From sequence record NC_048196.1: DNA of 64,000 nt. One strand, 5' to 3'. This DNA comes from Escherichia phage vB_EcoM_Schickermooser. Below are positions 14,747 through 63,425 of this stretch, in pieces; position 1 is the first letter of the stretch; the number at the start of each line of letters is the position of its first letter. Under the pieces are notes generated by a model, which saw only the letters and a program-made list of their open reading frames with translations, did not search any database and had not been told where the DNA came from. The translations under genes and the position numbers were made by a program.

Positions 14747-14949
14747 AAGCTTTTGCTGTATACTCTACTGTAGGATTCTTTTATTGGATTATAGTTGTTG
14801 TTGGATGTTGGTTGGGTTCTTCTGTTGTGATGGGAGAATGGTTAACATACAATGTATTTGAATGGGATGTAGTTTGTAGATCATTACTTGTTATATGGAC
14901 TGCTATTGTTTGTTGGATAACTGTTAGTCTAACATTAGATCTATATTGA
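14740..14949 (+). CDS. small membrane protein
   Basis: GGAGGAAAG SD; two hydrophobic segments. Confidence 0.5.
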   Translation: MLKAFAVYSTVGFFYWIIVVVGCWLGSSVVMGEWLTYNVFEWDVVCRSLLVIWTAIVCWITVSLTLDLY

Positions 14950-15117
14950 TTAATAGATGGTAGATAGATGATCATAGTTTATCTACCTTCACTTACGTTT
15001 CATACCTCACTATCGTGAGTAACATGAAACATTATTATATAGAAATCTACTACTCGCTATCGCTCGTAAACATATGTTTAGGGTACCATATTTTTTTGAA
15101 AAAGTCAATGCTGACTC

Positions 15118-15207
15118 ACCTATCAATTATCCGTTTAAGATAAGTCTTACCTATCAATCTAACTCTTAACTAGTATTGCACCTATAGTAAGACTATTCCT
15201 ATAGTTA
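15118..15207 (+). promoter_or_regulatory. direct-repeat cluster in a 360-bp non-coding region
   Basis: ACCTATCAAT at 15118 and 15149; CCTATAGT at 15181 and 15198. Confidence 0.35.
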
Positions 15208-15242
15208 TTAACCCTCTTCTTCTGTAGAATGTAATTAGATCC

Positions 15243-15272
15243 TTGACAAACTCACAAAGCTTGTGTTACATT
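15243..15272 (+). promoter_or_regulatory. sigma70-like promoter candidate
   Basis: TTGACA 15243-15248, N17/18, TTACAT/TACATT. Confidence 0.35.
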
Positions 15273-15309
15273 GTGTCTCACAGGTGAATAATACCGAACA
15301 GGAGGAAGA

Positions 15310-15525
15310 ATGAGTTCCAATTTTCTATACAAAGCAAAAGATTCACGAGATGGAGAGAACCATTGGTGGTTGATCACAGGAGATGGTGTTATCATCCTAC
15401 CGTGGGACGGAGAGACAAAAGTTCAAATACTAGAGAAAGTAAAAGGTGTTAGTTTTAATGTTAGTCATGACATAACAACTTTCAAAGCTTTTGCTATGAA
15501 TCCTAGTCTTGTTGCTGAATGGTAA
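15310..15525 (+). CDS. hypothetical protein
   Basis: CAGGAGGAAG SD upstream. Confidence 0.5.
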   Translation: MSSNFLYKAKDSRDGENHWWLITGDGVIILPWDGETKVQILEKVKGVSFNVSHDITTFKAFAMNPSLVAEW

Positions 15526-20767: not shown

Positions 20768-21450
20768 TATTTCTCCTTATCTAGAAGATTGTTAGACAAA
20801 AACACTGCACGAGCAAAACCACGTGCGGTTAGTGATCTAAGTTGTTTTGTTTTTGCACTAGCTCCACCTAAGCTTTTCCAACCCCAGAAGCAGCCTATAT
20901 GATCTACTGGTTTCTTCACTGGTTGAACAAAACCATTGCCGTGCCAAATACAAGTTTTCTTTGTATACCCATCACGGGTAGGCATTTTAGGATGAAAGCT
21001 TCCTTCCTCTTCAAACAAATACCCACCATACTCATAAGGATCAAAGTAAAAATCGGGTTTACGCCATAAGGTTGAAAGTTTACCTACTGGGTTCTCAATC
21101 ATCCAAGGAACATTATATTTGTTACCCAAAGCTTCCACTACACGAATATTAGCTAAAGCTTCATCCAATTCCTCTGTGCTGCGTTCGTGTTTGCTGCCAC
21201 TACCTGCTAACATAGTGCAAGGTGGAAATCCAAAAATAATATCGGGTTTAGGTATCCCATGATCTTCAGGGTTGAATGTAGAATCTATCCAGGCATTCAC
21301 ATAGGTTATGTTTGGGTGCTCCATCCTAACCTCGTATTTACCGTGATCCCCTTCATCAGCGTTTACACAAAAACACTTGTGACCTGCTTCGGCATAACGT
21401 AACACCATGATCCCAGATCCGTCAAACATAGACAAAACTGTTTTACTCAT
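20767..21450 (-). CDS. C5-cytosine methyltransferase-like protein (variant motifs)
   Basis: ATG 21450 after GGAGGGG; FDGSG (motif I-like), GFPPCT (PC motif IV-like), ENP (ENV-like). Confidence 0.45.
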   Translation of the reverse strand: MSKTVLSMFDGSGIMVLRYAEAGHKCFCVNADEGDHGKYEVRMEHPNITYVNAWIDSTFNPEDHGIPKPDIIFGFPPCTMLAGSGSKHERSTEELDEALANIRVVEALGNKYNVPWMIENPVGKLSTLWRKPDFYFDPYEYGGYLFEEEGSFHPKMPTRDGYTKKTCIWHGNGFVQPVKKPVDHIGCFWGWKSLGGASAKTKQLRSLTARGFARAVFLSNNLLDKEK

Positions 21451-21856
21451 TACCCCTCCATTCAAGACAAGCCATAACTTTACGCCAATCACTTTCTGTA
21501 AGAAAAATCTCGTTTGCTTTCTTCCACAAATCTAAATCGTGAAGGGTTGGAATACGGTATGTTAGTTCACAGAATCTATGCTCTTCTTCTGTAATATAAC
21601 CAAAATGCAGAGCCACATCGTGAAACCAACACCAACCATGCATCTCTCGAACAACATGGTCATGTTGAGACATTATTTTATGCCGTAAACCTAACCAACA
21701 AGGAACAGATACTTTAGTAGTCTTTAATCTGTGATCAACAGTATTAGAGTATTCAATAATAGCTGTCAGTTTCAATCGTGCTTTTTCTAAATCCTCATGC
21801 GTCACTTTGAAATAACTTTCTGAAAGATATCCACACATATTAATAACCTCCTTCAA
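21443..21856 (-). CDS. hypothetical protein
   Basis: 137-aa ORF overlapping neighbours by a few bases. Confidence 0.5.
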   Translation of the reverse strand: MKEVINMCGYLSESYFKVTHEDLEKARLKLTAIIEYSNTVDHRLKTTKVSVPCWLGLRHKIMSQHDHVVREMHGWCWFHDVALHFGYITEEEHRFCELTYRIPTLHDLDLWKKANEIFLTESDWRKVMACLEWRGNE

Positions 21857-27866: not shown

Positions 27867-28376
27867 TTAAACAAAATAAAATGGTTGAGAGAGGCCCAAA
27901 CGATTCTTTGGGTCGTATACATACCAAGCGTATGCTGTCTTATCTGTTCCACCTGCAACAAACGAAGGACGTTCTGAAAGGACTATAAGGTTTGTTGGTG
28001 GATTCTTTTGATGGAACTCTCGTCGTTTCTTTGACTCCAAGAAGCCCAACCGAAGAAGATAAATACAAACATCCGCCTCTTTTAAGCTCTTTTCCAAGAA
28101 CTCCATTGCTAACTTAAATGGAGGATTTGTGATTATAATGTCGGGACGATTTTCCCATTCATGACTAAAATAATCTTTACCTTCTTCAAGTTCGCAATAT
28201 TCTGAACCTTCAGGAAAATGGCGATAAATCGCTTCAGCTTCACCTCTGCAAGGTTCTGCAAAAACCCAACCTTCTTCCTTTAGATTTTTGAAATCTATAA
28301 CACTAAACAAACTATTGATTGCTTTTTGCGGTGTCGGATAATAATCGCTCGTTGGGCGATCATAATCTAATGCCAT
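27867..28376 (-). CDS. small Dam-like N6-adenine DNA methyltransferase (putative)
   Basis: DIIITNPPF resembles catalytic motif IV (D/N)PP(Y/F); 169 aa. Confidence 0.45.
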   Translation of the reverse strand: MALDYDRPTSDYYPTPQKAINSLFSVIDFKNLKEEGWVFAEPCRGEAEAIYRHFPEGSEYCELEEGKDYFSHEWENRPDIIITNPPFKLAMEFLEKSLKEADVCIYLLRLGFLESKKRREFHQKNPPTNLIVLSERPSFVAGGTDKTAYAWYVYDPKNRLGLSQPFYFV

Positions 28377-32629: not shown

Positions 32630-33189
32630 ACACCCTCGCTACGTAGCTGTTGAAAAGACTTAGCCATTGCATCTTTTGTTGATAAGATAGGTTTAAAATC
32701 TTCGTCAAAAATCATATCGAAGCCCCAATCAATCCCTATATCAGGATCATCCCAACGTAAACTTTGTTCGCTGGAAGGGTCGTATGGAGTTGTGCATTTG
32801 TATTCGAAGATAGCATCCATACTCAACACTATAAAACCATGTGCCAAACCAGGTGGAAGCCAGAACTGTGTATGGTGTCGTGCACGAAGAACAACACCGT
32901 CCCAAGCACCGTAAGTAGGACTATCTTTACGTAGGTCTACAGCGAAATCCAATACTTCCCCACTTACACAACGAACAAGCTTACCTTGCGGATTATTTGT
33001 TTGAAAGTGCATTCCTCGCAAAACACCGAAGTTTGATTTAGACATGTTATCTTGAACGAAAGTTTGTCTACCAATGATATCTTCATATTTTTGTTCATTA
33101 TATGTTTCTAAAAAGAAACCACGGTCATCTTTATAAACGTCTGGTTTGATAATTACCGCACCTTCAATTTTTGTTTTTTCTACTTTCAT
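32623..33189 (-). CDS. rmlC: dTDP-4-dehydrorhamnose 3,5-epimerase
   Basis: start set to ATG 33189 (GGAGG upstream, ATGA overlap with rmlA stop); DDRGFFLE cupin motif. Confidence 0.7.
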
Positions 33190-34064
33190 TTTCCCTCCGC
33201 TAATTTGAGTAGGTATTGCCCGTACTCTGTTTTCTTCAGTGAGTTTCCATGGTAGACCAAAGTCTCTAAAGAAATCCACCCTTTTTTGAAAGCAATTTCT
33301 TCCAGGCACGCAATCTTCAATCCTTGACAGTTCTCAATAGTCTGCACGAATTGACCAGCTTCCATCAGACTGGCGTGTGTTCCTGTGTCAAGCCAAGTAA
33401 ATCCTCGTCCGAGAACTTCTACTTGTAACTTCCTGTCTTCGAGGTAGCTGCGATTGATATCGGTGATCTCCAGTTCTCCACGCGCGGAAGGGGTTACTTC
33501 TAATGCACGTTGAATAACAGAGTTATCATAGAAATATAAACCTGTGACAGCATAATCTGATTTAGGATTTTCAGGTTTCTCTTCAATAGAAATAACTTGA
33601 CGATTACTCCCAAATTCAACCACACCGAATCGTTCAGGATCTTTCACCAAACACCCGAAGATACAAGCTCCGCCCCAAACATCTACCATCTCACTAGCGT
33701 TAATCAGTAGTTTACCAAAGCTTTGTCCGAAGAATAGGTTGTCACCTAAAATAAGAGCAACAGAGTCTTCTCCGATAAAATCTTTACCGATGATGAAAGC
33801 GTCCGCAAGACCTCGTGGCTCGGATTGGATTGCGTAAGTGAGTTTTATCCCAAACATAGACCCATCTCCAAGAAGATGCTCAAAGTCTTCCTGATCGCCT
33901 GGTGTGGTGATGATTAAGATATCCTTAATGTCAGCCAACATCAATACCGATAAGGGGTAGTAGATCATAGGTTTGTCATACACAGGGAGCAATTGCTTGC
34001 TCACACTGCGTGTTACCGGATGAAGGCGGGTTCCACTTCCTCCCGCCAAAATAATACCTTTCAT
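33186..34064 (-). CDS. rmlA: glucose-1-phosphate thymidylyltransferase
   Basis: N-terminus [18 protein letters not shown]. Confidence 0.8.
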
Positions 34065-34072
34065 AACCCTCC

Positions 34073-35065
34073 TTAAATCTTCTTACTCCACCATTGAGGG
34101 TTGTTTAAGTACCATTCAATCGTTGAGTAGAGATCTTGTTCAAATGTAGAGTTTGCACTCCAACCCAGTTCAGACTCTATTTTAGAAGGATTGATTTCAT
34201 AACGCAAGTCATGTCCTTTACGATCTTCAACAAAAGTTATCAAGTTGGAAGAAGGGTAGGTTCCTGCTTCTGGATGTACAGCATCCATGTAGTCACAAAC
34301 CATATAGATGATCTCCATATTGGTTTTGGGATTACGTGTTCCAACATTATACGTTTGACCTGGTTCTCCACCTGTTGCCACTTGAAGAATAGCTCGCGCA
34401 TGATCCTCAACAAAAAGCCAGTCTCGCACCTGATCGCCTTTACCATACACCGGAATCTCTTTATTCGTCAAGATACTTGTGATGATTTTTGGGATCAGCT
34501 TTTCTGGATGTTGATAAGGTCCAAAGTTATTGGAGCAGTTGGTTATCACAACAGGTAAACCGTAGGTACGGTACCAAGCTTTCACAAGATGGTCAGATGC
34601 TGCCTTAGACGCACTGTACGGGCTTGAAGGCGCATAAGCTGTCTCTTCGGTAAAGGGAACGCCAGAGTCTGCCATATCGCCGTACACTTCGTCTGTGGAG
34701 ACATGTACGAACATCTTAAGTTTATTTTTTGGGAGGAGCCTTGCAGCTTCCAATAAATTGTATGTACCAATAATATTGGAGTCGATGAAAACTCGTGGAT
34801 TCTTGATAGAATTATCCACATGACTCTCTGCCGCTAAGTGAATGATGAAATCGGGATTGCACTCTACTACTAAACTTTTGACCTGGGTTTCGTTTGCCAA
34901 ATCTGTTATGCTTAGTTTAACGTGAGTGATATCGCCTACATTCTCAATATCTGCTGCATAGCCCATCTTATCAACGACAAAAACTTCGTTATTGGGATCT
35001 TGACAAAGAGAGCGCACCACGGCACTCCCAATAAAACCAAGACCACCTGTTACCAGATAGCGCAT
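34073..35065 (-). CDS. rmlB: dTDP-glucose 4,6-dehydratase
   Basis: GGLGFIGS Rossmann motif and YSASK catalytic motif; first of rmlB-A-C-D. Confidence 0.75.
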
Positions 35066-35074
35066 CAGTTCTCC

Positions 35075-35401
35075 TTACCAGACATGTTGAGAAATAATAG
35101 TTTCCGTTTTAATGTTATATTTTTCAAGTAGCTTTGCATAGGCTTCTTTTGCATTCTCATTCAATTGCTCAAGATCTACAGCTATGCTTCCTTCTCCGCC
35201 TTCTAAATCAAGGCCATATATGCAATAAGACTCATCCGCATCGTAGAAAGGAGAGATGCGGCTTAAGTCAAGACCTTCTTGTAAGAACCAGTTAAAATCT
35301 CCGTCAAATTCTTCTTCAATTCTAGGATCTTCTCCTACAGCCTCTTCCCACTTATTAAAAGGTGCACCCTGTAACATACGCCATTCGATATCAATACCCA
35401 T
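35075..35401 (-). CDS. hypothetical acidic protein
   Basis: 108-aa ORF. Confidence 0.5.
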   Translation of the reverse strand: MGIDIEWRMLQGAPFNKWEEAVGEDPRIEEEFDGDFNWFLQEGLDLSRISPFYDADESYCIYGLDLEGGEGSIAVDLEQLNENAKEAYAKLLEKYNIKTETIISQHVW

Positions 35402-35553
35402 TTTTCATCTCCTCCTCTTCTTGAGCAGCTTTAATAATTGCTTCATAAATATCGTAAGCAATGCCTCCACAACATCTAGCTTCGAAAGCTATTGCTTCTG
35501 CAATGTGATCTGTTAATTCTCGTGGAATGCGAACATACTCTTTTTCACTCTCC
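35389..35553 (-). CDS. small hypothetical protein (54 aa)
   Basis: GGAGGTAGAAG SD then ATG. Confidence 0.35.
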
Positions 35554-35697
35554 ATCTTCTACCTCCAACCCTTCTTTTTCAAAGACTACTACTCGTCCCT
35601 CACCATGACAATTCAGGCAAGGAAATGTTACCATAATTTCCACTTCCATCTGTCCCGTCCCACCGCACACAGGACAAAAAATAAGTTTTTCAGCCAC
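35545..35697 (-). CDS. small zinc-ribbon protein (50 aa)
   Basis: GTG start 5 nt after AAGGAGG; CPVCGG ... CLNCHG. Confidence 0.4.
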   Translation of the reverse strand: MAEKLIFCPVCGGTGQMEVEIMVTFPCLNCHGEGRVVVFEKEGLEVEDGE

Positions 35698-35906
35698 TAT
35701 TCCTCCTTAATTATTTCAAATTTGGCAACACCATTTACAATAATATGACCACAAGACATAACTCCTAGCCAAGGATCGCCGTTTTTCTTCAGGCGTTTAC
35801 CGAATACATCACAAAAACCATTCTTCATTTCAGAGGCTTCATAAGAAGCCCCTTTATCAAAAACGTCTTTGAATGTGTCGATTATACCAACACATTTCAA
35901 AATCAT
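35697..35906 (-). CDS. hypothetical protein
   Basis: 69-aa ORF, ATGA overlap with nrdB. Confidence 0.45.
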   Translation of the reverse strand: MILKCVGIIDTFKDVFDKGASYEASEMKNGFCDVFGKRLKKNGDPWLGVMSCGHIIVNGVAKFEIIKEE

Positions 35907-36991
35907 TCGAAGTCAAGCTCCTCATCATCAGAGAGATCTTTGTTAGCTGAATTCAATTTGTAGTTAGTTAACTGAATCTCTTGGGCTGCTGACTGAATCA
36001 AATCAGGATTCAACCATTTTTCCATCCAAGCTAAAGGGCTATGTTTAGGTGCTTTAAACTTGGCTTTCATTTTCAATCGACGATAAATAGGAGCAGCATT
36101 GAAATAAACCCACTGTTTAGACAATTCGGCGTTAAGACCTACAATAAAACGACCTTCACTAAACAGGTAGTCACACCACTGTTCCTCTTGTTCAACAACA
36201 GTGTCGAGGATCAAAGTCAACTCTTCAATATTGTCTTCGTAAATTTTACGCCAAATTGGGTCATGCATCAATGCATCAATTACAGCATAATCCATCTTAA
36301 CATGCAAGATTTCATCTAGCATAATTTTCTGGATCAGTTTACAAGCTCCAACAAACAGTTGTTGTTCTGCCATAGCAAAAGTAGCAGAGAAGGAAGATAT
36401 AAACTGAATACCTTCTAATCCAATCAGGGCTACCATCCCTTTAAGAATCAGCAATCGAAGTTCATCGTTAGCTTCAATCAATCCTAGAGCATACTTATGA
36501 CCAGCTTCTTCCAACTGACCCATGATATCAGCAATGATACCCATACGATTGAAAATTTTATCATTAATCATAATCTGATTGATGACTTCAATTGGATCTG
36601 GAGTACATTGACGGATTATTTCAGAATACGTTAACGCATGGAGAACTTCCATTTCACTCTGCTTCATCATCATAGCACAGGCTTCATTATTACTCAAGAA
36701 TGGAGAGAACAAAGTGATGATTGATTTTGCAAGAGAATCATTTTCCCATTGGAACGATAAGTTTTTAATCATAACATCATAATTGTTTTTAGAACAAGCT
36801 ACGAAATCTTTACGTGTCTGATCCAGATTGACTTCATTCTCATCCCAATCTTGTGCTTTTTGAAGTTTGTAGAGTTTGTGCATCTCTGGATAAGTTACGT
36901 TAACAGAATCAAAGATCCCTAATTGTTCCCCTAAAAATACTGGATATTTTCCTGTTTTGTAAACTTCATTGTGTAAATTAATTGCTGCCAT
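35903..36991 (-). CDS. nrdB: ribonucleotide reductase class Ia beta subunit
   Basis: 362 aa; ferritin-like helical protein adjacent to nrdA. Confidence 0.75.
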   Translation of the reverse strand: MAAINLHNEVYKTGKYPVFLGEQLGIFDSVNVTYPEMHKLYKLQKAQDWDENEVNLDQTRKDFVACSKNNYDVMIKNLSFQWENDSLAKSIITLFSPFLSNNEACAMMMKQSEMEVLHALTYSEIIRQCTPDPIEVINQIMINDKIFNRMGIIADIMGQLEEAGHKYALGLIEANDELRLLILKGMVALIGLEGIQFISSFSATFAMAEQQLFVGACKLIQKIMLDEILHVKMDYAVIDALMHDPIWRKIYEDNIEELTLILDTVVEQEEQWCDYLFSEGRFIVGLNAELSKQWVYFNAAPIYRRLKMKAKFKAPKHSPLAWMEKWLNPDLIQSAAQEIQLTNYKLNSANKDLSDDEELDFE

Positions 36992-54071: not shown

Positions 54072-54184
54072 TTCTTACCTCCTTTGTTGTCAAAGTAGCT
54101 TACCAGAACATCGTGAACCACACACATGGCAAAAATCAGAACAATTGTTGCCAGGATTGGGTTCTCACTAATTAGTGCTATCAT
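54068..54184 (-). CDS. small membrane peptide (38 aa)
   Basis: ATG 54184 after GGAGGTGG; hydrophobic core. Confidence 0.3.
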   Translation of the reverse strand: MIALISENPILATIVLIFAMCVVHDVLVSYFDNKGGKK

Positions 54185-54491
54185 CTTTAACCACCTCCAA
54201 TTGCCTTTCGAGTTTGACTTTGTTTGAGAACTGATAATGACACAACTTACATTGCATGTCAACAATCTGATCGTGATTTAACCCTACAATTTTAACTTCC
54301 TTTGCACCATCCCACTCCAAATACTCAAAGCCATCCAAATGATTACTCTTGTCCAACAGGAATGCTATCTGCTGCCATTCAATCTGAATATCATTTAAAT
54401 GATATGCTGCACAGAAGATATCCTCGTAGTAAAAGACGATCATTGTCATTGCTTCGTCCAGCACAACTACCTCTTGTCTTGTAAATCTCAT
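54168..54491 (-). CDS. hypothetical protein (first gene of minus-strand block)
   Basis: TAGGAGG SD upstream. Confidence 0.5.
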   Translation of the reverse strand: MRFTRQEVVVLDEAMTMIVFYYEDIFCAAYHLNDIQIEWQQIAFLLDKSNHLDGFEYLEWDGAKEVKIVGLNHDQIVDMQCKLCHYQFSNKVKLERQLEVVKDDSTN

Positions 54492-54756
54492 TCTAGCCTC
54501 CTAAACGCGTCTCTGACGCACTTTTTATATATAAGATGATAAATCACCTTACCTAGTAAGTGAACTTTCTCTACGAGCCTCTTATGAAGCTTATGTTATA
54601 GGCTATACTATTGCTACCTATTTAAGCAAGGTTTTTTGCACAAAGAAAATAATTTTTAATAAAACTCTTGACTTTTGTGTTCGAAGTGTGCTACCCTAGA
54701 AATCTATTAACGAGCGCAGCGAGTTAAGGTTTTAGGTTGTTGATGTAGTACTCTGT

Positions 54757-54941
54757 ACTCAAGTACTGTACTCCGTACTAGATTAATAATTATTAAATAT
54801 TAATAATAAATAATTATTAGATCTAACAAACAGGTACAGTGTATCAGAACTGGTACGTACAGATCAACTTCTATCAATTAAAAATAATAAATTATTATAA
54901 ATAATACTTGATCTATAGATTAGTATGAAGTACAGTACGGA
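54757..54941. promoter_or_regulatory. divergent control region with GTAC-rich repeats flanking an AT-rich palindromic core
   Basis: five GTACT units at 54757-54778, AT-only near-palindrome 54781-54819, AGTACAGTAC inverted copies at 54833 and 54929. Confidence 0.45.
54908..54936 (+). promoter_or_regulatory. sigma70-like promoter candidate (TTGATC-N17-TACAGT)
   Basis: upstream of first plus-strand gene at 54969. Confidence 0.35.
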
Positions 54942-54968
54942 ACATCTTAACAAGAATGGAGGTGTGCA

Positions 54969-55154
54969 ATGATTAGTGAGAATCCGTGCAAATGGCATCA
55001 TGTGCCTATTAAAGATTGTATGTCTTGTAATCCACGTTCTATTTATAACATTGCATCTTATGACGATGACAATGTGTTAGACGATGATGAAGGCTGGGAG
55101 GATTTAGATTGGACTGGTTATGAAACCAAAAAGGATAAAATTATTCCTAGTTGA
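54969..55154 (+). CDS. hypothetical protein
   Basis: GGAGGTG SD upstream. Confidence 0.5.
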   Translation: MISENPCKWHHVPIKDCMSCNPRSIYNIASYDDDNVLDDDEGWEDLDWTGYETKKDKIIPS

Positions 55155-55191
55155 CTTAAGATATCCTTCGTGCTAAACTAGAAGTGAGGAG

Positions 55192-55443
55192 ATGCCGATC
55201 ACTCCCCATTTGGGGTTCGAAGGATATATGCAAAATAGTTTTTATTTTAGGTGCCGTGCTTGTAATAGGCATTTGACAAACCACTCCAGACGTGATAAAA
55301 ATGGAGTCATCAAGGAATCAGACCTCTGTTCTATTTGCACAGGTTTGGCTTTTGATGATAGTCCCGAAAGGGTTTATCAGCATCAATGTATAACAGACGT
55401 TCTCGTGTCAAACTTGGTAGAGGACGAACAACTAACAGATTAG
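55192..55443 (+). CDS. Cys-rich hypothetical protein
   Basis: GTGAGGAG SD; CRACN ... CSICTG. Confidence 0.5.
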   Translation: MPITPHLGFEGYMQNSFYFRCRACNRHLTNHSRRDKNGVIKESDLCSICTGLAFDDSPERVYQHQCITDVLVSNLVEDEQLTD

Positions 55444-55451
55444 GAGGAACA

Positions 55452-55700
55452 ATGTCTCTATTAGAAAAACACGTGTTTGAAGATGGTAACGGCAATGCAG
55501 TTTTTCTTTTCCATCCAGAAAAATACACATCTGAAAACAATGGTACAACTTCTATTGTAATCACTAAAGATGTTAAAGTTATTGATTTCTTGGCTCTGAT
55601 GCGAGAGATGGATCTTGAAATTAATACTTTTAACGCAGAAGCTTTGGTTGTTGCTCTTCTGGAAAAGAAAGATAGTGAAGAAGTAGCAGAATATGCTTAA
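55452..55700 (+). CDS. hypothetical protein
   Basis: ATG 55452 after TTAGGAGG. Confidence 0.5.
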   Translation: MSLLEKHVFEDGNGNAVFLFHPEKYTSENNGTTSIVITKDVKVIDFLALMREMDLEINTFNAEALVVALLEKKDSEEVAEYA

Positions 55701-55707
55701 ATAACTA

Positions 55708-55737
55708 TTGACAAACGTATCCTTCATATGTTAGGAT
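55708..55737 (+). promoter_or_regulatory. sigma70-like promoter candidate (TTGACA-N18-TAGGAT)
   Basis: shares the cTATTGACA ... TAG..T architecture seen at 56295, 57264 and 63426. Confidence 0.45.
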
Positions 55738-55750
55738 ACGTTCATCAAGT

Positions 55751-55940
55751 GTGGTAACAGGGTCGTTGACTTTTGTTAAGAGGGGCTTGCACTGCGGTAG
55801 TGTTAGAGACTACTTCTTCAGAGGTTAGCTACCAAAGAGGAAAAGGAATAGTCTCGGCTCAAGAACTTTTACGCTGAAAGTTGGGCTTGGTCTTAGAGAA
55901 TGTAGCGGTTCTCTACAATCGTCAGCGTCTCTGTTACCAC
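55751..55940 (+). ncRNA. candidate structured RNA flanked by 10-bp inverted repeat
   Basis: GTGGTAACAG at 55751 pairs with CTGTTACCAC at 55931; internal stems GAGACTA/TAGTCTC and TGTAG/CTACA; no ORF. Confidence 0.3.
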
Positions 55941-55946
55941 ATTTAT

Positions 55947-56021
55947 GGCCCTGTAGCTCAATGGGAGAGCTGTCGGCTCATAACCGATAGGTAGCTGGAT
56001 CGAAACCAGCCAGGGCCACCA
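55947..56021 (+). tRNA. tRNA-Met (anticodon CAT; could be Ile2/lysidine type)
   Basis: manual cloverleaf: acceptor GGCCCTG/CAGGGCC, anticodon loop CTCATAA, encoded CCA. Confidence 0.6.
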
Positions 56022-56023
56022 AA

Positions 56024-56098
56024 GTCTTTATGGTGTAATGGATAGCACAGGAGTCTTCTAAACTCTTAGTCAAGGTTCGATTCCTTGTAAAGACACCA
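56024..56098 (+). tRNA. tRNA-Arg (anticodon TCT)
   Basis: acceptor GTCTTTA/TAAAGAC, anticodon loop CTTCTAA, T-loop TTCGATT, CCA. Confidence 0.6.
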
Positions 56099-56100
56099 GA

Positions 56101-56286
56101 ACATTTTAACATGAATTAGCTCAAGTGATTTGAACCCACTACTGATCATGGTGGCAGAGAATGAGGCAAGTATGTCAGACATTATAAACAAAGGCCACGG
56201 TTATATTAGAAGACATAAATGCTCGAAGAGCACCGTTCGTGGAGAACGGGGGTTGGTGGAGTCACCATTCATGGTAAAATGTTTTA
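56101..56286 (+). ncRNA. candidate structured RNA flanked by 17-bp near-perfect inverted repeat
   Basis: AACATTTTAACATGAAT at 56101 pairs with ATTCATGGTAAAATGTT at 56270 (one mismatch). Confidence 0.3.
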
Positions 56287-56294
56287 AAAAACTA

Positions 56295-56324
56295 TTGACA
56301 ACAAGTATTATTTTATGTTAGATT
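56295..56324 (+). promoter_or_regulatory. sigma70-like promoter candidate (TTGACA-N18-TAGATT)
   Basis: TTGACA 56295-56300; immediately upstream of tRNA-Ser. Confidence 0.45.
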
Positions 56325-56332
56325 ATAAGTAT

Positions 56333-56423
56333 GGAAGGGCAAATCGACGTGGCGACGAAAACGGTCTTGAAAACCGCCGAGCTTTAAAGAGCCTTGGGAG
56401 TTCGACTCTCCCTCCTTCCGCCA
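56333..56423 (+). tRNA. tRNA-Ser (anticodon TGA), type II
   Basis: acceptor GGAAGGG/TCCTTCC, loop CTTGAAA, long variable arm, CCA. Confidence 0.55.
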
Positions 56424-56428
56424 GGTTA

Positions 56429-56514
56429 GGTAGATTGGTGAAATGGTAGCCACGACAGTTTGCTAAACTGTAGTCGGAAACGGCGTGTAGGTTCGAGTCC
56501 TACATCTACCGCCA
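56429..56514 (+). tRNA. tRNA-Ser (anticodon GCT), type II
   Basis: acceptor GGTAGAT/ATCTACC, loop TTGCTAA, long variable arm, CCA. Confidence 0.6.
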
Positions 56515-56516
56515 AG

Positions 56517-56625
56517 TTCTTTTTAATGTAGCTTACTTTAATAGAGTAAACTTTCGGCAAATGGCCCCCACCATCTTACCGATAACTCATAGTTAGTGGT
56601 GCGAACACTGGCTATTTTAAAAAGA
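56517..56625 (+). ncRNA. candidate structured element between tRNAs
   Basis: TTCTTTTTAA at 56517 versus TTAAAAAGAA at 56616 inverted repeat; internal hairpins. Confidence 0.2.
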
Positions 56626-56643
56626 ATTTAAATACTAGCATTT

Positions 56644-56731
56644 AGGTGAGTTAATTCCGTAGGGGTAGCGGGGCAGACTGTAAATCTGTTATCATTGCGA
56701 TTCGGGTGGTTCGACTCCATCACTCACCACC
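56644..56731 (+). tRNA. tRNA-Tyr (anticodon GTA), type II
   Basis: acceptor GGTGAGT/ACTCACC, loop CTGTAAA, long variable arm, CCA. Confidence 0.55.
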
Positions 56732-56737
56732 AAATTA

Positions 56738-56823
56738 AGATGAGTTGGCTGAATGGTTTAAGCGGCGGACTGTTAATCCGTGTTCGAAAGAACGATATAG
56801 GTTCAAATCCTATACTCATCGCC
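56738..56823 (+). tRNA. type II tRNA with apparent anticodon GTT (Asn anticodon on long-variable-arm body)
   Basis: acceptor GATGAGT/ACTCATC, anticodon stem GCGGA/TCCGT, loop CTGTTAA, variable hairpin GTTC-GAAA-GAAC, CCA. Confidence 0.45.
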
Positions 56824-56830
56824 AGAATTA

Positions 56831-56908
56831 TGGACTTGTAGAGTTAAGGTAAACCCCCCAGTCGCCAAGAGGCTTCTGGAATTGCAGGTATCGAATCCTG
56901 CCGAGTCC
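56831..56908 (+). tRNA. tRNA-like element, atypical (anticodon not assignable)
   Basis: 7-bp acceptor pairing GGACTTG/CGAGTCC and T-arm GCAGG/CCTGC with 8-nt loop; no canonical anticodon arm. Confidence 0.3.
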
Positions 56909-56914
56909 CAGCTT

Positions 56915-56989
56915 TGCTCCTATAGTATAATGGCTATTACAACGGTTTTGTAATCCGTGGATCTCTGTTCGATTCAGAGTGGGAGCACC
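56915..56989 (+). tRNA. tRNA-Thr (anticodon TGT)
   Basis: acceptor GCTCCTA/TGGGAGC, loop TTTGTAA, T-arm CTCTG-TTCGATT-CAGAG, CCA. Confidence 0.55.
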
Positions 56990-57263
56990 AACACAACATT
57001 AAGGGCACTGTGATTGATCGTCGTATCCTGTGCACAAGGTCTGTTCGAAAGACAGTGTTCTTAGTATTGTGTTGATCACAAAAAGAGTTACCTGAAACTT
57101 GACCGGAGTAGGGTTGGATGGGGCAAAAGAAGAAGCGGCTCTCCCATCGACAGCAACGAAGAATAATATTTGACTTTGGTTTTGTATTATTTTAAGTTAG
57201 CTTACCGAACGTAGGGCTAGTCACCCAATGGGATACTCGTCACTGTCCCACTCAATAAAACTA

Positions 57264-57293
57264 TTGACAACCAATAGTAAAATGTAGTATAGT
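57264..57293 (+). promoter_or_regulatory. sigma70-like promoter candidate (TTGACA-N18-TATAGT)
   Basis: TTGACA 57264-57269, TATAGT 57288-57293; upstream of tRNA-Gly. Confidence 0.5.
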
Positions 57294-57304
57294 AAAGATG
57301 TAGG

Positions 57305-57378
57305 GCGTTCTTGGTGTAGCGGTAGCATTCCGTCCTTCCAAGTCGGCGGCACGAGTTCGATCCTCGTAGAACGCTCCA
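57305..57378 (+). tRNA. tRNA-Gly (anticodon TCC)
   Basis: acceptor GCGTTCT/AGAACGC, loop CTTCCAA, T-arm ACGAG-TTCGATC-CTCGT, CCA. Confidence 0.55.
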
Positions 57379-57476
57379 AATTATTTAATAAAGGGTTGCC
57401 AGAAAACTTTCTCTTTTACTCATGGTTTTCTCCTTCTCTCACACCTCTTCTGGTTGCCCTTCATTAAATGATTTAT

Positions 57477-57552
57477 TGGTTTGTAGTGTAGTCAGGTAGC
57501 ACACGACACTTTGACTGTCGTAGGTTTGGTTCAAATCCAGACAGACCAGCCA
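57477..57552 (+). tRNA. tRNA-Gln (anticodon TTG)
   Basis: U1-A72 acceptor TGGTTTG/CAGACCA, anticodon stem CGACA/TGTCG, loop CTTTGAC, CCA. Confidence 0.55.
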
Positions 57553-57557
57553 TATAA

Positions 57558-57634
57558 CGGAATTTAGCTCAGTTTGGTAGAGCATACGCTTTGGGAGCGT
57601 AGGGTCGCAGGTTCGAATCCTGCAATTCCGACCA
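57558..57634 (+). tRNA. tRNA-Pro (anticodon TGG)
   Basis: acceptor CGGAATT/AATTCCG, loop TTTGGGA, T-arm GCAGG-TTCGAAT-CCTGC, CCA. Confidence 0.65.
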
Positions 57635-57640
57635 ATTTAA

Positions 57641-57714
57641 TGTTTCGTAGTTCAATGGTAGAACCCACGACTGATAATCGTGAGACACAAGTTCGATTCT
57701 TGTCGAAACAACCA
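57641..57714 (+). tRNA. tRNA-Ile (anticodon GAT)
   Basis: acceptor TGTTTCG/CGAAACA, anticodon stem CACGA/TCGTG, loop CTGATAA, CCA. Confidence 0.55.
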
Positions 57715-57717
57715 ATT

Positions 57718-57786
57718 TCCCGTTAGACTTACAGGATAAGAGTTCCACAGCTTATTGTGATGCTGGTTCGAATCCAGCACGGGATA
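57718..57786 (+). tRNA. tRNA-like element with non-canonical anticodon arm
   Basis: T-arm GCTGG-TTCGAAT-CCAGC and 6/7 acceptor pairing; best anticodon stem CACA/TGTG encloses a 6-nt loop; no CCA. Confidence 0.3.
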
Positions 57787-57792
57787 CATAAT

Positions 57793-57871
57793 AGCGGGAT
57801 AGAGGAGTCTGGTCGTCCTCGCCAGTTTCATATGCTGGAGATCATCGGTTCAAATCCGATTCCCGCCTCCA
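57793..57871 (+). tRNA. tRNA-Met (anticodon CAT), 1-72 mismatch (initiator-like?)
   Basis: acceptor AGCGGGA/TCCCGCC with A1-C72 mismatch, anticodon stem CCAGT/GCTGG, loop TTCATAT, T-loop TTCAAAT, CCA. Confidence 0.5.
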
Positions 57872-57984
57872 AATATCGCTTGCCAGCGGTATCTTTGAAG
57901 ACCTTGCCTGGTTCCTTCTAAGATGGAGGGGTGCGACTCCTTAACGCACAACATACTACTACTAAATACTTATCAGGAGATATC

Positions 57985-61831: not shown

Positions 61832-63397
61832 GTGTCAACAGGAAAAAGAACGTACACTAAAAAGTCAGAATACTGGGACAAAGGTGCTGCAAATAAAGCT
61901 GCTCTCTCTCCAACAAAAGAGGCAGAGAAAGAGAAAACGTTACTCCTGTCACCTGAAATAGGAACGATCGGATTAAACTCAATCAAAGCATTTACGAATT
62001 TCATGCAACCTTATGAGACTCGTTTCCCAGAATGTATTCGCACTTTTAAAGAGATGGGTGAAGACCCTGATGTAGCTACTGCTCTTGACGCTACATATAT
62101 CTTTGTAGATAGAGCATTCTTTGATTTCAAGATAAAATACAATGTAAACTCGGCAAAGTCAAGAAAAGCTGCTAAGTTTATTGATTACATGTTACGCAAT
62201 ATGCAAGCCCCTCTACGTCAATATGTTAGATCACTTTTGACATATAAGCAATACGGGTTTGCATTCGCAGAAAAAGTTTATGAGTTGGATGAAGATCCTA
62301 AGAGTCCTTACTTTGGGTATTGGCGATTGACCAAACTGGCTTTTAGACCACAAGACACTCTTCACATGGCTCAACCTTTTACATATTCGGCAGACGGACG
62401 TTCTATTCTATCTGTTAACCAGAATATCACCAATACGATGTTAGCTCCAGGTAATACAACTTTAGAAACTGGTATTAAAGAAATTCCTTTCAGTAAAGTT
62501 TTATTTGTTGGTAGTAACATTACAGAGAATAACCCACTAGGAGTTAGTCCGCTTTTAGCTGTATATCGTAGCTGGCGTGAAAAATCTCTTATTCAGGAAT
62601 TTGAGGTTATTGGGGTATCTAAAGATTTAGGCGGTATGCCAGTTCTTAAGGTTCCAAGTGACATTCTAAACAGGGCATCTTTAGATCCTGCTGGGGATGA
62701 AGCACAATCTCTTCGAGTTCTCCAAGCCAATATCGCTAACCTGCACTCTGGTGAGCAAGCCTATATGGTATTGCCTTCAGACGTTTATGAAGGCACAGTG
62801 ATGCGTCAATACGATCTTGTATTCCAAGGTGTTGATGGCACGGGTAAACAGTTTGACACTCAAGCACTAATCAAACAACGCAAACTGGATATTTATAACC
62901 GCTTTGGTGCGGGTGTGTTGATTATGGGTGATGGTGATGCAGGAAGTTTTGCGCTTTCTGACAACAAACAAACACTATTGTCTCATTTTATTGAGCGAGA
63001 TGTAGATATTGTTGTAGAAGCTATAAACTCTCAACTGATCCCTCAAACACTACGACTAAACAATATCTTCCTTTCTGATGAAGATATGCCTAAGTTTGTC
63101 AGTGGTGAAATGGGTGATCCTGATATTGAAGTAAATGCTAAAGCTATTCAGCAGTTGGTAGCCTCTGGTGCAATACCTTTAACCCCAGAAGTTATTAACG
63201 AGTTCCTTGAAAAAATTGGTTTTGAATATCGTATCCCTGACGATATTGTTGCCAATAAAGAGAAATTCTTTGAATTCATGGATAACTATATGCCTGACAA
63301 AACTTCACGATCAGGAGATGGTTTAGCTACAGCGGGAACTGGAACGTCTGATACTGTTTCTGCTTTAGATCCTTCGGCACAAAACCTGTCGAATTAA
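61832..63397 (+). CDS. putative portal protein
   Basis: 521-aa ORF directly downstream of terL; GTG start after TGGAGGAACAA; assignment from position and size only. Confidence 0.5.
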   Translation: MSTGKRTYTKKSEYWDKGAANKAALSPTKEAEKEKTLLLSPEIGTIGLNSIKAFTNFMQPYETRFPECIRTFKEMGEDPDVATALDATYIFVDRAFFDFKIKYNVNSAKSRKAAKFIDYMLRNMQAPLRQYVRSLLTYKQYGFAFAEKVYELDEDPKSPYFGYWRLTKLAFRPQDTLHMAQPFTYSADGRSILSVNQNITNTMLAPGNTTLETGIKEIPFSKVLFVGSNITENNPLGVSPLLAVYRSWREKSLIQEFEVIGVSKDLGGMPVLKVPSDILNRASLDPAGDEAQSLRVLQANIANLHSGEQAYMVLPSDVYEGTVMRQYDLVFQGVDGTGKQFDTQALIKQRKLDIYNRFGAGVLIMGDGDAGSFALSDNKQTLLSHFIERDVDIVVEAINSQLIPQTLRLNNIFLSDEDMPKFVSGEMGDPDIEVNAKAIQQLVASGAIPLTPEVINEFLEKIGFEYRIPDDIVANKEKFFEFMDNYMPDKTSRSGDGLATAGTGTSDTVSALDPSAQNLSN

Positions 63398-63425
63398 AAA
63401 TATTTAATATTTTTTAATTTTTCTA

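What the first reader, a model, noticed from the sequence alone, without database searches (positions are those of the whole stretch)
54492..54968. Divergent switch region with GTAC repeats around an AT-only palindromic core
This 477-bp ORF-free interval separates the minus-strand block from the plus-strand block. It contains five tandem GTACT units (54757-54778), a 39-bp stretch of only A/T with near-palindromic symmetry (54781-54819), and AGTACAGTAC-type motifs in inverted orientation on either side. It could be a replication origin, a bidirectional promoter/operator array for a phage regulator, or a packaging site.
Basis: seen in the sequence. Interest (0 to 1): 0.55.

Follow-up and report, generated by a model that had tools for sequence, protein, structure and literature searches.

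The report
Phage divergent early-promoter region with GTAC repeats
This gap between two oppositely transcribed gene blocks of a phAPEC8-like E. coli phage is most likely its main early-promoter control region, into which one phage lineage has inserted a cluster of an otherwise avoided GTAC motif next to the easiest-to-melt DNA in the genome; whether that insert also starts DNA replication is untested.

Summary
The window is a Phapecoctavirus (phAPEC8-like) genome. GTAC is about 3-fold depleted (64 seen, 184-224 expected), yet 10 sites lie in 54748-54938. The two longest A/T-only runs of the genome also lie here.

Five other lineages of the subfamily share a skeleton at this strand switch:
- leftward sigma70-type promoters;
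- a rightward promoter P1 (TTGACT-18-TACCCT) followed by an invariant box, CGAGCG-N1-2-AGCGAG;
- a GATCTAAC block;
- an A/T-only tract that abuts the -35 of a second rightward promoter P2.

The five GTACT units plus the 38-bp A/T palindrome are an insertion of about 70 bp, private to the phAPEC8 clade.

Best reading: a divergent early-promoter region with tandem rightward promoters, carrying a lineage-specific cis element of unknown role. A transcription-activated origin remains possible (about 0.25). The skew minimum coincides with the strand switch, so it does not discriminate, and no DnaA boxes or initiator gene were found. A packaging site has no support. No transcription, replication or terminus data exist. 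Interest is moderate to low.

The parts
54489..54502 (-). Ribosome-binding site (AGGAGG) and ATG of the first leftward gene (107 aa, PHROG 14390, unknown function)
54536..54564 (-). Candidate leftward promoter PL1: TTCACT-17-TATCAT. The block GGTGATTTATCAT is partly conserved in relatives.
   Evidence: consensus match plus conservation; no start-site data
54602..54629 (-). Candidate leftward promoter PL2: TTGCTT-16-TATAGC. The homologous TTGTGT-16-TATAGT in phiWec188 precedes an extra leftward ORF.
   Evidence: read from the sequence
54646..54664 (.). 19-nt A/T-only spacer between the back-to-back promoters. It ends 3 nt before the -35 of P1. One relaxed DnaA-box match (54634-54642) lies just to its left.
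54668..54697 (+). Rightward promoter P1: TTGACT-18-TACCCT with a TGC extended -10. Predicted start about 54702-54706. It is conserved in six lineages and is one of three such promoters in the genome.
54707..54727 (+). Promoter-proximal box. The invariant core is CGAGCGCAGCGAG (54711-54723). It fits the mini-hairpin consensus GCGNAGC, with tandem G.A pairs and flanking stem TTAAC/GTTAA.
   Evidence: core invariant in 10 copies; flanking pair AU:5/CG:4; the next-but-one pair out is paired in all 10; the pair between them is paired in only 6 of 10. One search gives the consensus from the review. Predicted energies are weak.
54724..54744 (+). Short TTAAGGTTT/TAGGTT repeat. Its copy number varies between relatives (UP17, anhysbys).
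54747..54779 (.). GTACT array: five units with a 5-8-nt period, including two AGTACT palindromes. It appears as a 37-column insertion private to the phAPEC8 clade.
54780..54824 (.). A/T palindrome: AGATTAATAATTATT, 14 nt, AATAATTATTAGATCT. The A/T-only run is 54782-54819. It is the least stable 40-bp duplex in the genome.
54820..54831 (+). GATCTAACAAAC block. It is conserved as GATCTAAC(A/G)AC in muut, Tr1 and an IMG/VR relative, and as GATCTAAAAGAC in phiWec188.
54833..54862 (.). Middle GTACAG-type motifs (GGTACAG, GGTACGTACAG). The segment 54838-54899 is missing from the nieznany record, close to that record's start.
54876..54906 (+). A/T-only run 2 (31 nt). It ends 1 nt before the -35 of P2, so it is in the position of an UP element. 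Counterparts of 23-47 nt occur in all five other lineages.
   Evidence: UP elements in related Certrevirus early promoters
54908..54936 (+). Rightward promoter P2: TTGATC-17-TACAGT. Predicted start about 54941-54944. It is homologous to TTGACT/TTGACC-17/18-TAGAGT/TACACT in relatives, and TAGAT(C)T in the spacer is conserved.
54930..54938 (.). It overlaps the -10 hexamer of P2.
54958..54971 (+). Ribosome-binding site (GGAGG) and ATG of the first rightward gene (61 aa, PHROG 26411, unknown function)
14940..15108 (-). Second member of the P1 family in the window: TTGACT-17-TACCCT plus the box ACGAGCGATAGCGAG (15067-15053). It is followed by about 125 nt of conserved three-hairpin non-coding sequence.

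Best explanation
The interval is the main divergent early-transcription control region of a phAPEC8-like myophage.

Host sigma70 RNA polymerase starts leftward from one or two promoters (PL1, PL2) into the early and nucleotide-metabolism block. It starts rightward from two tandem promoters:
- P1 (TTGACT-18-TACCCT, extended -10). Its transcript, or the non-template DNA strand, begins with a conserved hairpin box.
- P2 (TTGATC-17-TACAGT), about 240 nt downstream, boosted by an A/T-only UP-like tract. P2 drives the 61-aa gene and the tRNA cluster.

This skeleton is inherited across the subfamily.

The five GTACT units plus the 38-bp A/T palindrome are an insertion of about 70 bp into the P1 leader, found only in the phAPEC8 clade. 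I infer that the insert is a cis element that binds a protein or melts easily, and that it modulates rightward early transcription as a roadblock, an architectural site or an unwinding site.

Shown: the sequence anatomy, the statistics and the conservation. Inferred: promoter activity, the UP function and any role of the insert.
For: Identity: 97-99% identical to about 60 Phapecoctavirus genomes.

Promoters:
- Consensus matches are oriented with their genes across the window.
- P1, the box, the GATCTAAC block, the A/T run and P2 recur in the same order, at similar offsets, in phiWec188, muut, Klebsiella phi1_175008, Citrobacter Tr1 and an IMG/VR contig. This holds although the intervening sequence has diverged.
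- Another long A/T-only run (63392-63422) also directly abuts a -35.
- Related Certrevirus and rV5 phages are described as using sigma70-like early promoters with UP elements and four transcription units.

The box: invariant core, with compensatory flanking pairs, in 10 copies.

The insert:
- It is private to the clade.
- It holds 10 of the 64 GTAC sites in a window where GTAC observed/expected (O/E) is 0.35; in the closest full genome (O/E 0.31) the same region holds 10 of 134.
- It is conserved in the clade's non-Nanopore records and in two metagenome contigs.
Against: - There are no transcription start-site data for any relative.
- The -35 of P2 (TTGATC) and the leftward hexamers are imperfect. 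The generic scan finds promoter-like sites at the chance rate here: 9 against 7.2 expected.
- The GTACT units overlap no predicted promoter (about +44 to +76 from P1, about -195 to -160 from P2). A classical operator role therefore does not fit well.
- No cognate DNA-binding protein was found. The flanking genes have no Pfam hit and fall in PHROGs of unknown function.
- Parts look dispensable: dw-ec lacks two units, nieznany lacks 54838-54899 and EP57 lacks the right end. These may be assembly artefacts.
- Predicted hairpin energies are no better than those of shuffled sequence.
Confidence: 0.5

Rival explanations
1. Transcription-activated origin of replication. P1 transcription opens, or forms an R-loop in, the downstream A/T tracts. 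The displaced strand carries the mini-hairpin box as a single-strand initiation signal. The GTACT array acts like short iterons next to the unwinding element. The phage's T7-type primase-helicase and PolA then take over.
For: - A promoter followed about 85 nt later by the least stable duplex in the whole genome, ranked first at 40, 100 and 200 bp.
- The two longest A/T-only runs lie here.
- The global minimum of cumulative GC skew falls at the box.
- Repeats directly abut the A/T tract.
- The box fits the GCGNAGC/GCGNNAGC consensus, which a review places at the G4 and St-1 primase origins and at RSF1010 ssiA.
- One of the three P1-type promoters has no gene downstream.
- rV5-type phages have a gp4-like primase-helicase and PolA, and their origin is unknown.
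Against: - The skew follows the four transcription blocks, with slopes of 31, 58, 51 and 57 per kb, and has a second minimum at the other divergent switch. It adds nothing independent (the same conclusion was reached for rV5).
- The repeat units are 5-8 nt, not the 17-22 nt of classical iterons.
- There is no DnaA-box enrichment.
- The one O-like initiator tested, from Seunavirus KE23, has no homolog here. No broader search for an initiator gene was made.
- The GTACT/palindrome module is missing from sister clades that share the replication genes.
- The A/T run 2 is equally well explained as the UP element of P2.
Confidence: 0.25
2. The repeats have no function of their own. The GTACT array and the A/T palindrome arose by slippage and inverted duplication of the P2 upstream region in a permissive leader, and they are simply tolerated.
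For: - The module is private to one clade.
- A/T run 1 resembles A/T run 2: direct repeats at 71-74% identity and 56-nt inverted arms at 71%.
- A neighbouring short repeat varies in copy number.
- Several records carry deletions within the region.
- Identity here (about 97%) is no higher than in the flanking genes.
Against: - GTAC is depleted about 3-fold genome-wide in exactly this clade (observed/expected (O/E) 0.31-0.35, against 0.5-1.0 in relatives). A neutral cluster of 10 sites would be expected to erode.
- The sites are intact in every non-Nanopore record aligned, except for one site in phAPEC8 and the sites removed by the deletions in the nieznany and EP57 records, and in two metagenome contigs.
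Confidence: 0.15
3. Packaging (pac) or other cleavage site gated by base modification, in the manner of the phage P1 pac site. Short repeats that carry a modifiable palindrome flank a bendable A/T centre where terminase or another nuclease cuts.
For: - GTAC-bearing repeats lie on both sides of an A/T core in inverted orientation.
- GTAC sites are probably modified in at least one relative. The Nanopore-only BI-EHEC assembly miscalls 24 of 38 GTAC sites, against 1.6% overall mismatch.
- rV5 relatives are circularly permuted, so a pac site should exist somewhere.
- The P1 comparison itself comes from my own knowledge and was not tested.
Against: - In the EF1-1 annotation no terminase gene is listed through window ~51 kb, and none lies within a few kb of the region in nepoznato or ESCO13.
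- No public record starts inside the core. nieznany starts 27 nt into the 61-aa gene, which is probably arbitrary.
- The only terminal-repeat claim in the subfamily (BME3) maps elsewhere and looks contaminated.
- The module is absent from sister clades.
Confidence: 0.05
4. RNA-level leader element. The P1 transcript folds and controls its own stability, termination or downstream translation, as put/nut sites or 5' stabiliser hairpins do. The fold consists of the box hairpin, the A-U hairpin, and long-range pairing of GUACUGUACU with AGUACAGUAC.
For: - The box sits at about +3 to +25 of the P1 transcript and shows compensatory flanking pairs.
- The long-range 10-bp pairing and the A-U hairpin appear in the minimum-energy fold (z = -2.25).
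- The sister promoter at 15108 drives a conserved three-hairpin non-coding RNA candidate.
Against: - No Rfam family matches.
- Beyond the box, the leader sequence and its fold are not conserved between clades.
- The single-strand DNA fold is more unusual than the RNA fold (z = -4.05 against -2.25).
- No U-tract follows any hairpin.
Confidence: 0.1

Closest known systems
sigma70-type early promoters with UP elements in rV5-like and Certrevirus myophages (rV5, CB7, CR3)
   Same: Host-polymerase -35/-10 promoters with A/T-rich upstream tracts. They are concentrated in early regions of genomes that have four transcription blocks, and GC skew tracks gene orientation.
   Different: P1 has the unusual, strictly conserved -10 TACCCT plus a downstream box, and occurs only three times per genome. 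In this clade the leader also carries a GTAC-dense insert. Neither feature appears in the papers I read.
Phage lambda PL/PR divergent early control region with nut sites (HK022 put sites)
   Same: Back-to-back early promoters with a conserved hairpin-type element shortly downstream of the start site (from my own knowledge).
   Different: No repressor or operator organisation was found, and no boxA/boxB-like sequence. The hairpin core is a GNA/GNNA mini-hairpin with tandem G.A pairs. Antitermination was not tested.
T7 primary origin and T4 oriF/oriG (a promoter followed by an A/T-rich unwinding element)
   Same: A strong promoter is followed within about 85-185 nt by the most easily melted DNA in the genome. 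rV5, a related phage, has a T7-like primase-helicase and PolA.
   Different: No replication data exist. The A/T tract also serves as the upstream element of a second promoter. The extra GTACT array has no counterpart in T7 or T4.
Mini-hairpin DNA (GCGNAGC / GCGNNAGC) at G4 and St-1 primase origins, RSF1010 ssiA and N4 virion-polymerase promoters
   Same: All ten copies of the box core fit the consensus exactly (GCGCAGC, GCGAAGC, GCGATAGC), and they vary only at the N positions.
   Different: Here the motif lies in double-stranded DNA just downstream of a sigma70 promoter. Formation of the hairpin and any role in priming are unproven.
Phage P1 pac site (TGATCA/G hexamers flanking the cut site, regulated by Dam methylation)
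   Same: Short repeats that contain a modifiable 4-bp palindrome lie on both sides of a central A/T-rich segment (comparison from my own knowledge).
   Different: The site is not in or near a terminase gene. There are no terminus data. The motif is GTAC rather than GATC, and GATC shows no significant clustering here.
Tandem short-repeat operators of ribbon-helix-helix repressors (MetJ 8-bp metboxes, omega-protein heptads)
   Same: Two to ten contiguous 7-8-bp units, some of them palindromic. The GTACT units have a 5-8-nt period and are followed by a 7-nt periodic A/T tract. The comparison is from my own knowledge.
   Different: The array overlaps no promoter, and no RHH-like protein was identified next to it.

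Membership tests
sigma70-type bacterial/phage promoter | -35 and -10 hexamers close to TTGACA/TATAAT, 16-18 bp apart, pointing toward a downstream gene | tested here: met
   P1 is TTGACT-18-TACCCT with TGC upstream. P2 is TTGATC-17-TACAGT. PL1 is TTCACT-17-TATCAT and PL2 is TTGCTT-16-TATAGC.
sigma70-type bacterial/phage promoter | Conservation of the hexamers and their spacing in diverged relatives | tested here: met
   P1 and P2 are found in six lineages at corresponding positions, despite divergent flanks.
sigma70-type bacterial/phage promoter | A/T-rich UP element at about -40 to -60 | tested here: met
   A/T-only run 54876-54906 ends 1 nt before the -35 of P2. The same arrangement is seen in five relatives and at 63392-63422.
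sigma70-type bacterial/phage promoter | A mapped transcription start | not testable with these tools
   The literature searches found no transcriptome or 5'-end data for Stephanstirmvirinae.
Iteron-type origin (lambda ori, theta plasmids) | Three or more direct repeats of about 17-22 bp | tested here: not met
   The units are a 5-bp core with a 5-8-nt period. TRF finds only a 17-bp x2.2 repeat inside the A/T run.
Iteron-type origin (lambda ori, theta plasmids) | An adjacent A/T-rich unwinding element | tested here: met
   A 38-bp A/T-only run starts 2 nt after the last unit. It is the least stable 40-bp duplex in the genome.
Iteron-type origin (lambda ori, theta plasmids) | A cognate initiator gene (O/Rep-like) in or beside the origin | tested here: not met
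   The flanking genes have no Pfam match and fall in PHROGs of unknown function. The O-like protein of Seunavirus KE23 has no homolog in the window or in the DIJ07P1 genome.
DnaA-dependent origin | A cluster of DnaA boxes (TTWTNCACA) | tested here: not met
   One relaxed match in the region (54634-54642). The window total is 218 against 203 expected.
Transcription-activated origin (T7 primary origin, T4 oriF/oriG) | A promoter followed closely by an A/T-rich unwinding element | tested here: met
   The A/T runs start 90 and 184 nt downstream of the start of the P1 -10 hexamer; in relatives the run starts at +149 to +158.
Transcription-activated origin (T7 primary origin, T4 oriF/oriG) | Replication initiates there (copy-number peak, nascent-strand starts) | not testable with these tools
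   The GC-skew minimum at the site coincides with the strand switch and cannot be separated from it.
pac site of a headful-packaging phage | Located in or next to the small-terminase gene | tested here: not met
   The neighbours are small genes of unknown function and the tRNA cluster. The EF1-1 annotation lists no terminase through window ~51 kb.
pac site of a headful-packaging phage | Virion DNA ends map to it | not testable with these tools
   No read data are available. Record start points are not informative.
Mini-hairpin DNA motif | Sequence GCGNAGC or GCGNNAGC | tested here: met
   All ten aligned copies fit the consensus; the consensus is taken from PMC13037366.
Mini-hairpin DNA motif | The hairpin actually forms and is unusually stable | tested here: inconclusive
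   The nearest-neighbour folds recover the hairpin, but with z-scores of 0 to -1.9. These models do not capture mini-hairpin stability.
Known RNA families (Rfam 15) | A covariance-model match | tested here: not met
   Only sub-threshold snoRNA noise in 54300-55300 and in 14700-15300.
LexA (SOS) operator | CTGT-N8-ACAG | tested here: not met
   Only a one-mismatch match at 54753-54768. The window count is at the chance level.

The most novel reading that the evidence does not exclude
The TACCCT promoters with the mini-hairpin box (three per genome, conserved across Stephanstirmvirinae) are primer or R-loop-type replication initiation signals. At the main copy, the phAPEC8 clade has added a modification-sensitive module. 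In that module, a cluster of GTAC sits beside the genome's most meltable DNA. GTAC is avoided elsewhere in the genome and is probably modified. The cluster would gate origin firing or cleavage, much as GATC clusters do at oriC or at the P1 pac site.
Probability: 0.12. Interest if true: 0.65.

Novelty: new variant of a known kind. Interest (0 to 1): 0.35.

Why it matters
phAPEC8-like and rV5-like phages are widely isolated for therapy and biocontrol, yet their early transcription programme and replication origin are unmapped.

This analysis gives precise, testable coordinates for:
- the main divergent early promoters;
- a conserved promoter-proximal box that recurs three times per genome;
- a lineage-specific GTAC-dense module.

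If the module or the box proves to be an origin or a modification-gated site, it would be a handle for engineering these phages. It would also be an example of a restriction-avoided motif retained for the phage's own use. If not, the region is an ordinary, if elaborate, promoter region.

Tried and rejected
Searches that found nothing:
- Rfam on the region and on the sister element.
- Pfam on the flanking genes and on two methyltransferase-like genes.
- A PDB sequence search with the C5-methyltransferase-like protein.
- E. coli genomes searched with 54700-54945, so no host or prophage source for the insert.
- An IMG/VR scan for the GTACT array.
- A metagenome scan for the leader: only two identical clade members, so no extra natural variation to measure constraint.

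Motif tests that failed:
- A second GTAC cluster at 34566-34765 lies inside a sugar-nucleotide gene and is unrelated.
- GATC clustering is not significant: 3 sites, and genome observed/expected (O/E) is 0.93.
- AGATCT is common in the genome.
- DnaA, LexA and IHF consensus scans are at the chance level or absent.

Comparative leads that led nowhere:
- The Seunavirus homolog of the 61-aa gene is not at a strand switch, so it gives no synteny.
- The O-like initiator of Seunavirus KE23 has no homolog here.
- The box pattern in IMG/VR also hit about 25 small contigs of an unrelated virus group. By my rough estimate (about 18 matches, assuming about 9e10 bases in the collection), that is roughly the number expected by chance for a 19-nt gapped pattern. 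In that group the match lies inside a large inverted repeat upstream of a long ORF, so I treated it as coincidence.
- The BME3 '342-bp direct terminal repeat' maps far from this region. It contains Ns and sequences that look like Fur boxes to my eye, so it is not usable.
- I looked for a clade-specific methyltransferase to explain GTAC modification. Both candidates have close homologs in more records than the ~63 of the phAPEC8 clade, and one is also found at 85% identity in a separate group of ~145-149-kb coliphages. I did not confirm which clades these are, so no clade-specific link emerged.
- GC skew cannot separate replication from transcription.

Not attempted: structure prediction of the neighbouring small proteins. 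The link to the repeats would have been too indirect.
Full report
**What the window is.** The region and its flanks are 97-99% identical to about 60 Escherichia phages of the genus Phapecoctavirus (phAPEC8-like, subfamily Stephanstirmvirinae). The closest is DIJ07P1.
- The interval 54492-54968 separates the minus-strand gene 54168..54491 from the plus-strand gene 54969..55154.
- The minus-strand gene is the first of a 36-kb block. That block encodes small early proteins, a ligase, exonucleases, ribonucleotide reductase, thymidylate synthase and methyltransferases.
- The plus-strand gene is followed by ten tRNA genes at 55947-57871.
- No record annotates the interval, apart from a bare 'repeat_region' in three records from one study.

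**Checking the observation.**
- GTACT starts at 54748, 54755, 54763, 54768 and 54775.
- The A/T-only run is 54782-54819 (38 bp). Its arms are AGATTAATAATTATT and AATAATTATTAGATCT.
- GTACTGTAC (54763-54771) is mirrored by GTACAGTAC (54930-54938).
- GTAC is the second most depleted 4-bp palindrome in the window, with 64 observed against 184 expected.
- Ten of those 64 sites lie in 200 bp, with Poisson P of about 2e-14 per window.
- The only other dense spot, six sites at 34566-34765, lies inside a sugar-nucleotide gene.
- In the whole genome of DIJ07P1 there are 134 GTAC sites against 434 expected, and this region is the top cluster.
- In that genome the region also holds the two longest A/T-only runs. 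It is the least stable duplex at the 40, 100 and 200 bp scales.

**What the relatives show.** The 107-aa leftward gene has homologs at 33-58% identity in a second Phapecoctavirus clade (phiWec), in Justusliebigvirus (muut), in Klebsiella phage phi1_175008 and in Citrobacter phage Tr1. In all of them it sits at a divergent switch. Read in the window's orientation, all share one skeleton:
1. A rightward promoter P1, TTGAC(A/T)-17/18-TACCCT, with a conserved (A)GTATGC just upstream of the -10.
2. An invariant box, CGAGCG-N1-2-AGCGAG, starting 19-22 nt after the start of the -10.
3. A GATCTAAC-type block at +62 to +67 in four of the five relatives (it is absent from phi1_175008), and at +128 in the window.
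4. An A/T-only run of 23-47 nt at +149 to +158.
5. Directly abutting that run, a second promoter P2: TTGACT or TTGACC, 17-18 nt, then TAGAGT or TACACT. TAGAT(C)T is conserved in the spacer.
6. A ribosome-binding site and the first rightward gene.

In the window, P2 is TTGATC (54908-54913), 17 nt, TACAGT (54931-54936). This has two consequences:
- The second A/T run (54876-54906) sits exactly where an UP element would be.

Another long A/T-only run (63392-63422) likewise ends at the -35 of a TTGACA promoter. Related Certrevirus phages are reported to use sigma70-like early promoters with UP elements. rV5 is reported to have bidirectional promoters at such switches. Leftward, TTCACT-17-TATCAT and TTGCTT-16-TATAGC are candidate promoters.

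**What is special to this clade.** In the six-lineage alignment, the five GTACT units are a 37-column insertion found only in the window's clade. The GATCTAAC block is displaced by 66 nt compared with relatives. The insert therefore comprises the GTACT array plus A/T run 1, placed between the box and the GATCTAAC block.
- Strong GTAC depletion is also specific to this clade. Observed/expected (O/E) is 0.31-0.35 in the window, DIJ07P1 and EF1-1. In the pieces available for comparison it is 0.5-0.64 in phiWec, 0.67-0.75 in Justusliebigvirus, and 0.8-1.0 in Tr1, phi1 and a Seunavirus.
- Within the clade the array is stable in non-Nanopore records and in two metagenome contigs.
- phAPEC8 has lost one site, dw-ec lacks two units, nieznany lacks 54838-54899 and EP57 lacks the right end. 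Some of these differences may be assembly artefacts.
- BI-EHEC seemed at first to have mutated nine of the ten sites. The same pattern holds over the 42 kb of its genome that I compared: 24 of 38 aligned GTAC sites are altered, against 1.6% overall mismatch.
- That record is a Nanopore-only assembly made with Guppy 4, Flye and Medaka. I read the changes as systematic miscalls at a modified motif. This hints that GTAC was modified in that virion DNA, and it says nothing about whether the sites are dispensable.

**The promoter-proximal box.** The P1-plus-box arrangement occurs exactly three times in the DIJ07P1 genome:
- here (copy A);
- at window 15108, on the minus strand (copy B);
- at the other divergent switch near 69 kb, outside the window (copy C).

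It also occurs in diverged IMG/VR relatives. Across ten copies the core is invariant. Its centre reads GCGCAGC, GCGAAGC or GCGATAGC. These fit the mini-hairpin DNA consensus GCGNAGC/GCGNNAGC, which a review places at the G4 and St-1 primase origins, RSF1010 ssiA and N4 early promoters.
- The flanking pair alternates A-U (5) and C-G (4).
- The next-but-one pair out is paired in all ten copies. The pair between them is paired in only six.
- The covariation score is 0.37 against 0.19 in shuffles, with 0 of 500 shuffles reaching it.
- Nearest-neighbour folding recovers the hairpin, but no better than for shuffled sequence.

Its role is open. It could be a 5' RNA hairpin, a pause or antitermination signal, an operator, or a single-strand initiation signal.

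**Origin of replication?**

For:
- A promoter is followed by the most meltable DNA in the genome.
- Repeats abut the A/T tract.
- The global minimum of cumulative GC skew lies at the box.
- The box has mini-hairpin character.
- One P1-type promoter (copy B) has no gene downstream.

Against:
- The skew has four arms that match the four transcription blocks, with slopes of 31, 58, 51 and 57 per kb. This fits no single-origin pattern, and the authors of the rV5 paper reached the same conclusion.
- There is no DnaA-box enrichment.
- The one O-like initiator tested has no homolog here, and the flanking genes show no initiator domains.
- The units are far shorter than iterons.
- The module is absent from clades that share the replication genes.
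- A/T run 2 has a simpler explanation as an UP element.

I put this reading at about 0.25. It is compatible with the promoter reading rather than exclusive of it.

**Packaging site?** The layout loosely recalls the P1 pac site; that comparison is from my own knowledge. In the EF1-1 annotation no terminase gene is listed through window ~51 kb, and none lies in the flanks of the region in nepoznato or ESCO13. No record starts in the core. The only terminal-repeat claim in the subfamily maps elsewhere and looks contaminated. I put this reading at about 0.05.

**Verdict.** The interval is a conserved divergent early-promoter region with tandem rightward promoters. Its eye-catching GTACT/A-T palindrome is a lineage-specific insert whose function is unknown. 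Its retention in a GTAC-avoiding genome argues that it is used. How it is used needs wet-lab data: transcription start sites, marker frequency, end mapping and modification calling. It is a new variant of a known kind and of moderate-to-low interest.

Noticed in passing
window 14940-15108 (minus strand): This is a second copy of the TTGACT-17-TACCCT promoter with the box ACGAGCGATAGCGAG. It lies in the intergenic gap 14950-15310 and points against the surrounding plus-strand genes. About 125 nt downstream is conserved in a phiWec-like IMG/VR contig and folds into three hairpins, with two compensatory pairs. The overlapping 64-aa ORF is not conserved, and no Rfam family matches. It is a candidate structured non-coding RNA.
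   Followed up: partly
L017:19030-19290 (DIJ07P1 about 69.0-69.3 kb, minus strand; outside the window): A third copy of the same promoter and box sits at the genome's other divergent strand switch, where cumulative GC skew has its second minimum. It is followed by a gene about 130 nt downstream.
   Followed up: partly
DIJ07P1 139558, 99357 and 69032 (window 54818 and 14944 for the first two): TAGATCTAA occurs at only six loci in the 143-kb genome. Three of them lie 126-226 nt downstream of the three TACCCT-box promoters, in the transcribed orientation. This was noticed after the fact, so its significance is uncertain.
   Followed up: partly
L019 (BI-EHEC, OL505078.1 20000-62000) against window 19711-61761: In this Nanopore-only public assembly, 24 of 38 aligned GTAC sites are changed, mostly to ATAC, GTGC or GCAC and sometimes with small insertions. 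Overall mismatch is 1.6%, and 4 of the 14 coding changes alter an amino acid. The record probably carries systematic errors at a modified motif, which suggests that GTAC was modified in that virion DNA.
   Followed up: partly
whole window: Four-base palindromes CCGG (observed/expected (O/E) 0.31), GTAC (0.35), GGCC (0.46) and CTAG (0.58) are depleted, while GATC is not (0.93). The strong GTAC depletion is specific to the phAPEC8 clade among the relatives sampled.
   Followed up: partly
window 33186-36000, especially 34566-34765: The sugar-nucleotide (dTDP-rhamnose-type) gene cluster contains the only other GTAC-dense spot, six sites in 200 bp. This may reflect more recent acquisition of the cluster from bacteria.
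   Followed up: no
window 20767-21492 and 27867-28376 (minus strand): Two small methyltransferase-like genes have no Pfam hit. One carries C5-type motifs (FGFPPC, ENP), and its relatives are annotated as Dcm-like. The other carries an NPPF motif, and its relatives are annotated as N6-adenine methyltransferases. Both have close homologs beyond the ~63 phAPEC8-clade records. Their target sequences are unknown.
   Followed up: partly
window 54724-54744: A short TTAAGGTTT/TAGGTT repeat just after the box varies in copy number between relatives: UP17 and anhysbys each carry extra TTAAGGTTT-type copies.
   Followed up: no
window 55700-57900: The tRNA cluster is interspersed with several strong sigma70-like promoters (55708, 56295, 57170, 57264). 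It differs between relatives, which have an HNH endonuclease gene inserted or different tRNA sets.
   Followed up: no
L058:2086-2427 (BME3, PP239276.1 146957-147298): The annotated 342-bp 'DTR-L' of this Justusliebigvirus record contains Ns and, to my eye, sequences resembling Fur boxes (GATAATGATTATCATT). It is not repeated within the 2.5 kb at either end of the record that I fetched. It looks like host DNA or a misassembly, so the published terminal-repeat claim is doubtful.
   Followed up: partly
L013:87-404 (Salmonella phage KE23, Seunavirus): A 105-aa protein matching the N-terminal DNA-binding part of lambda-O-like replication initiators sits just upstream of the PRPP-synthase/NAMPT genes. 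In Justusliebigvirus, the Klebsiella phage and Tr1, those genes border the homologous divergent region. It has no counterpart in the phAPEC8-type genome.
   Followed up: partly
L003:2573-2785 (phiWec188; same in L004 and L012): The phiWec clade carries an extra 70-aa leftward ORF inside the homologous intergenic region. Where the window has the GTACT array and A/T palindrome, this clade has three AGATCT sites within 115 bp.
   Followed up: no
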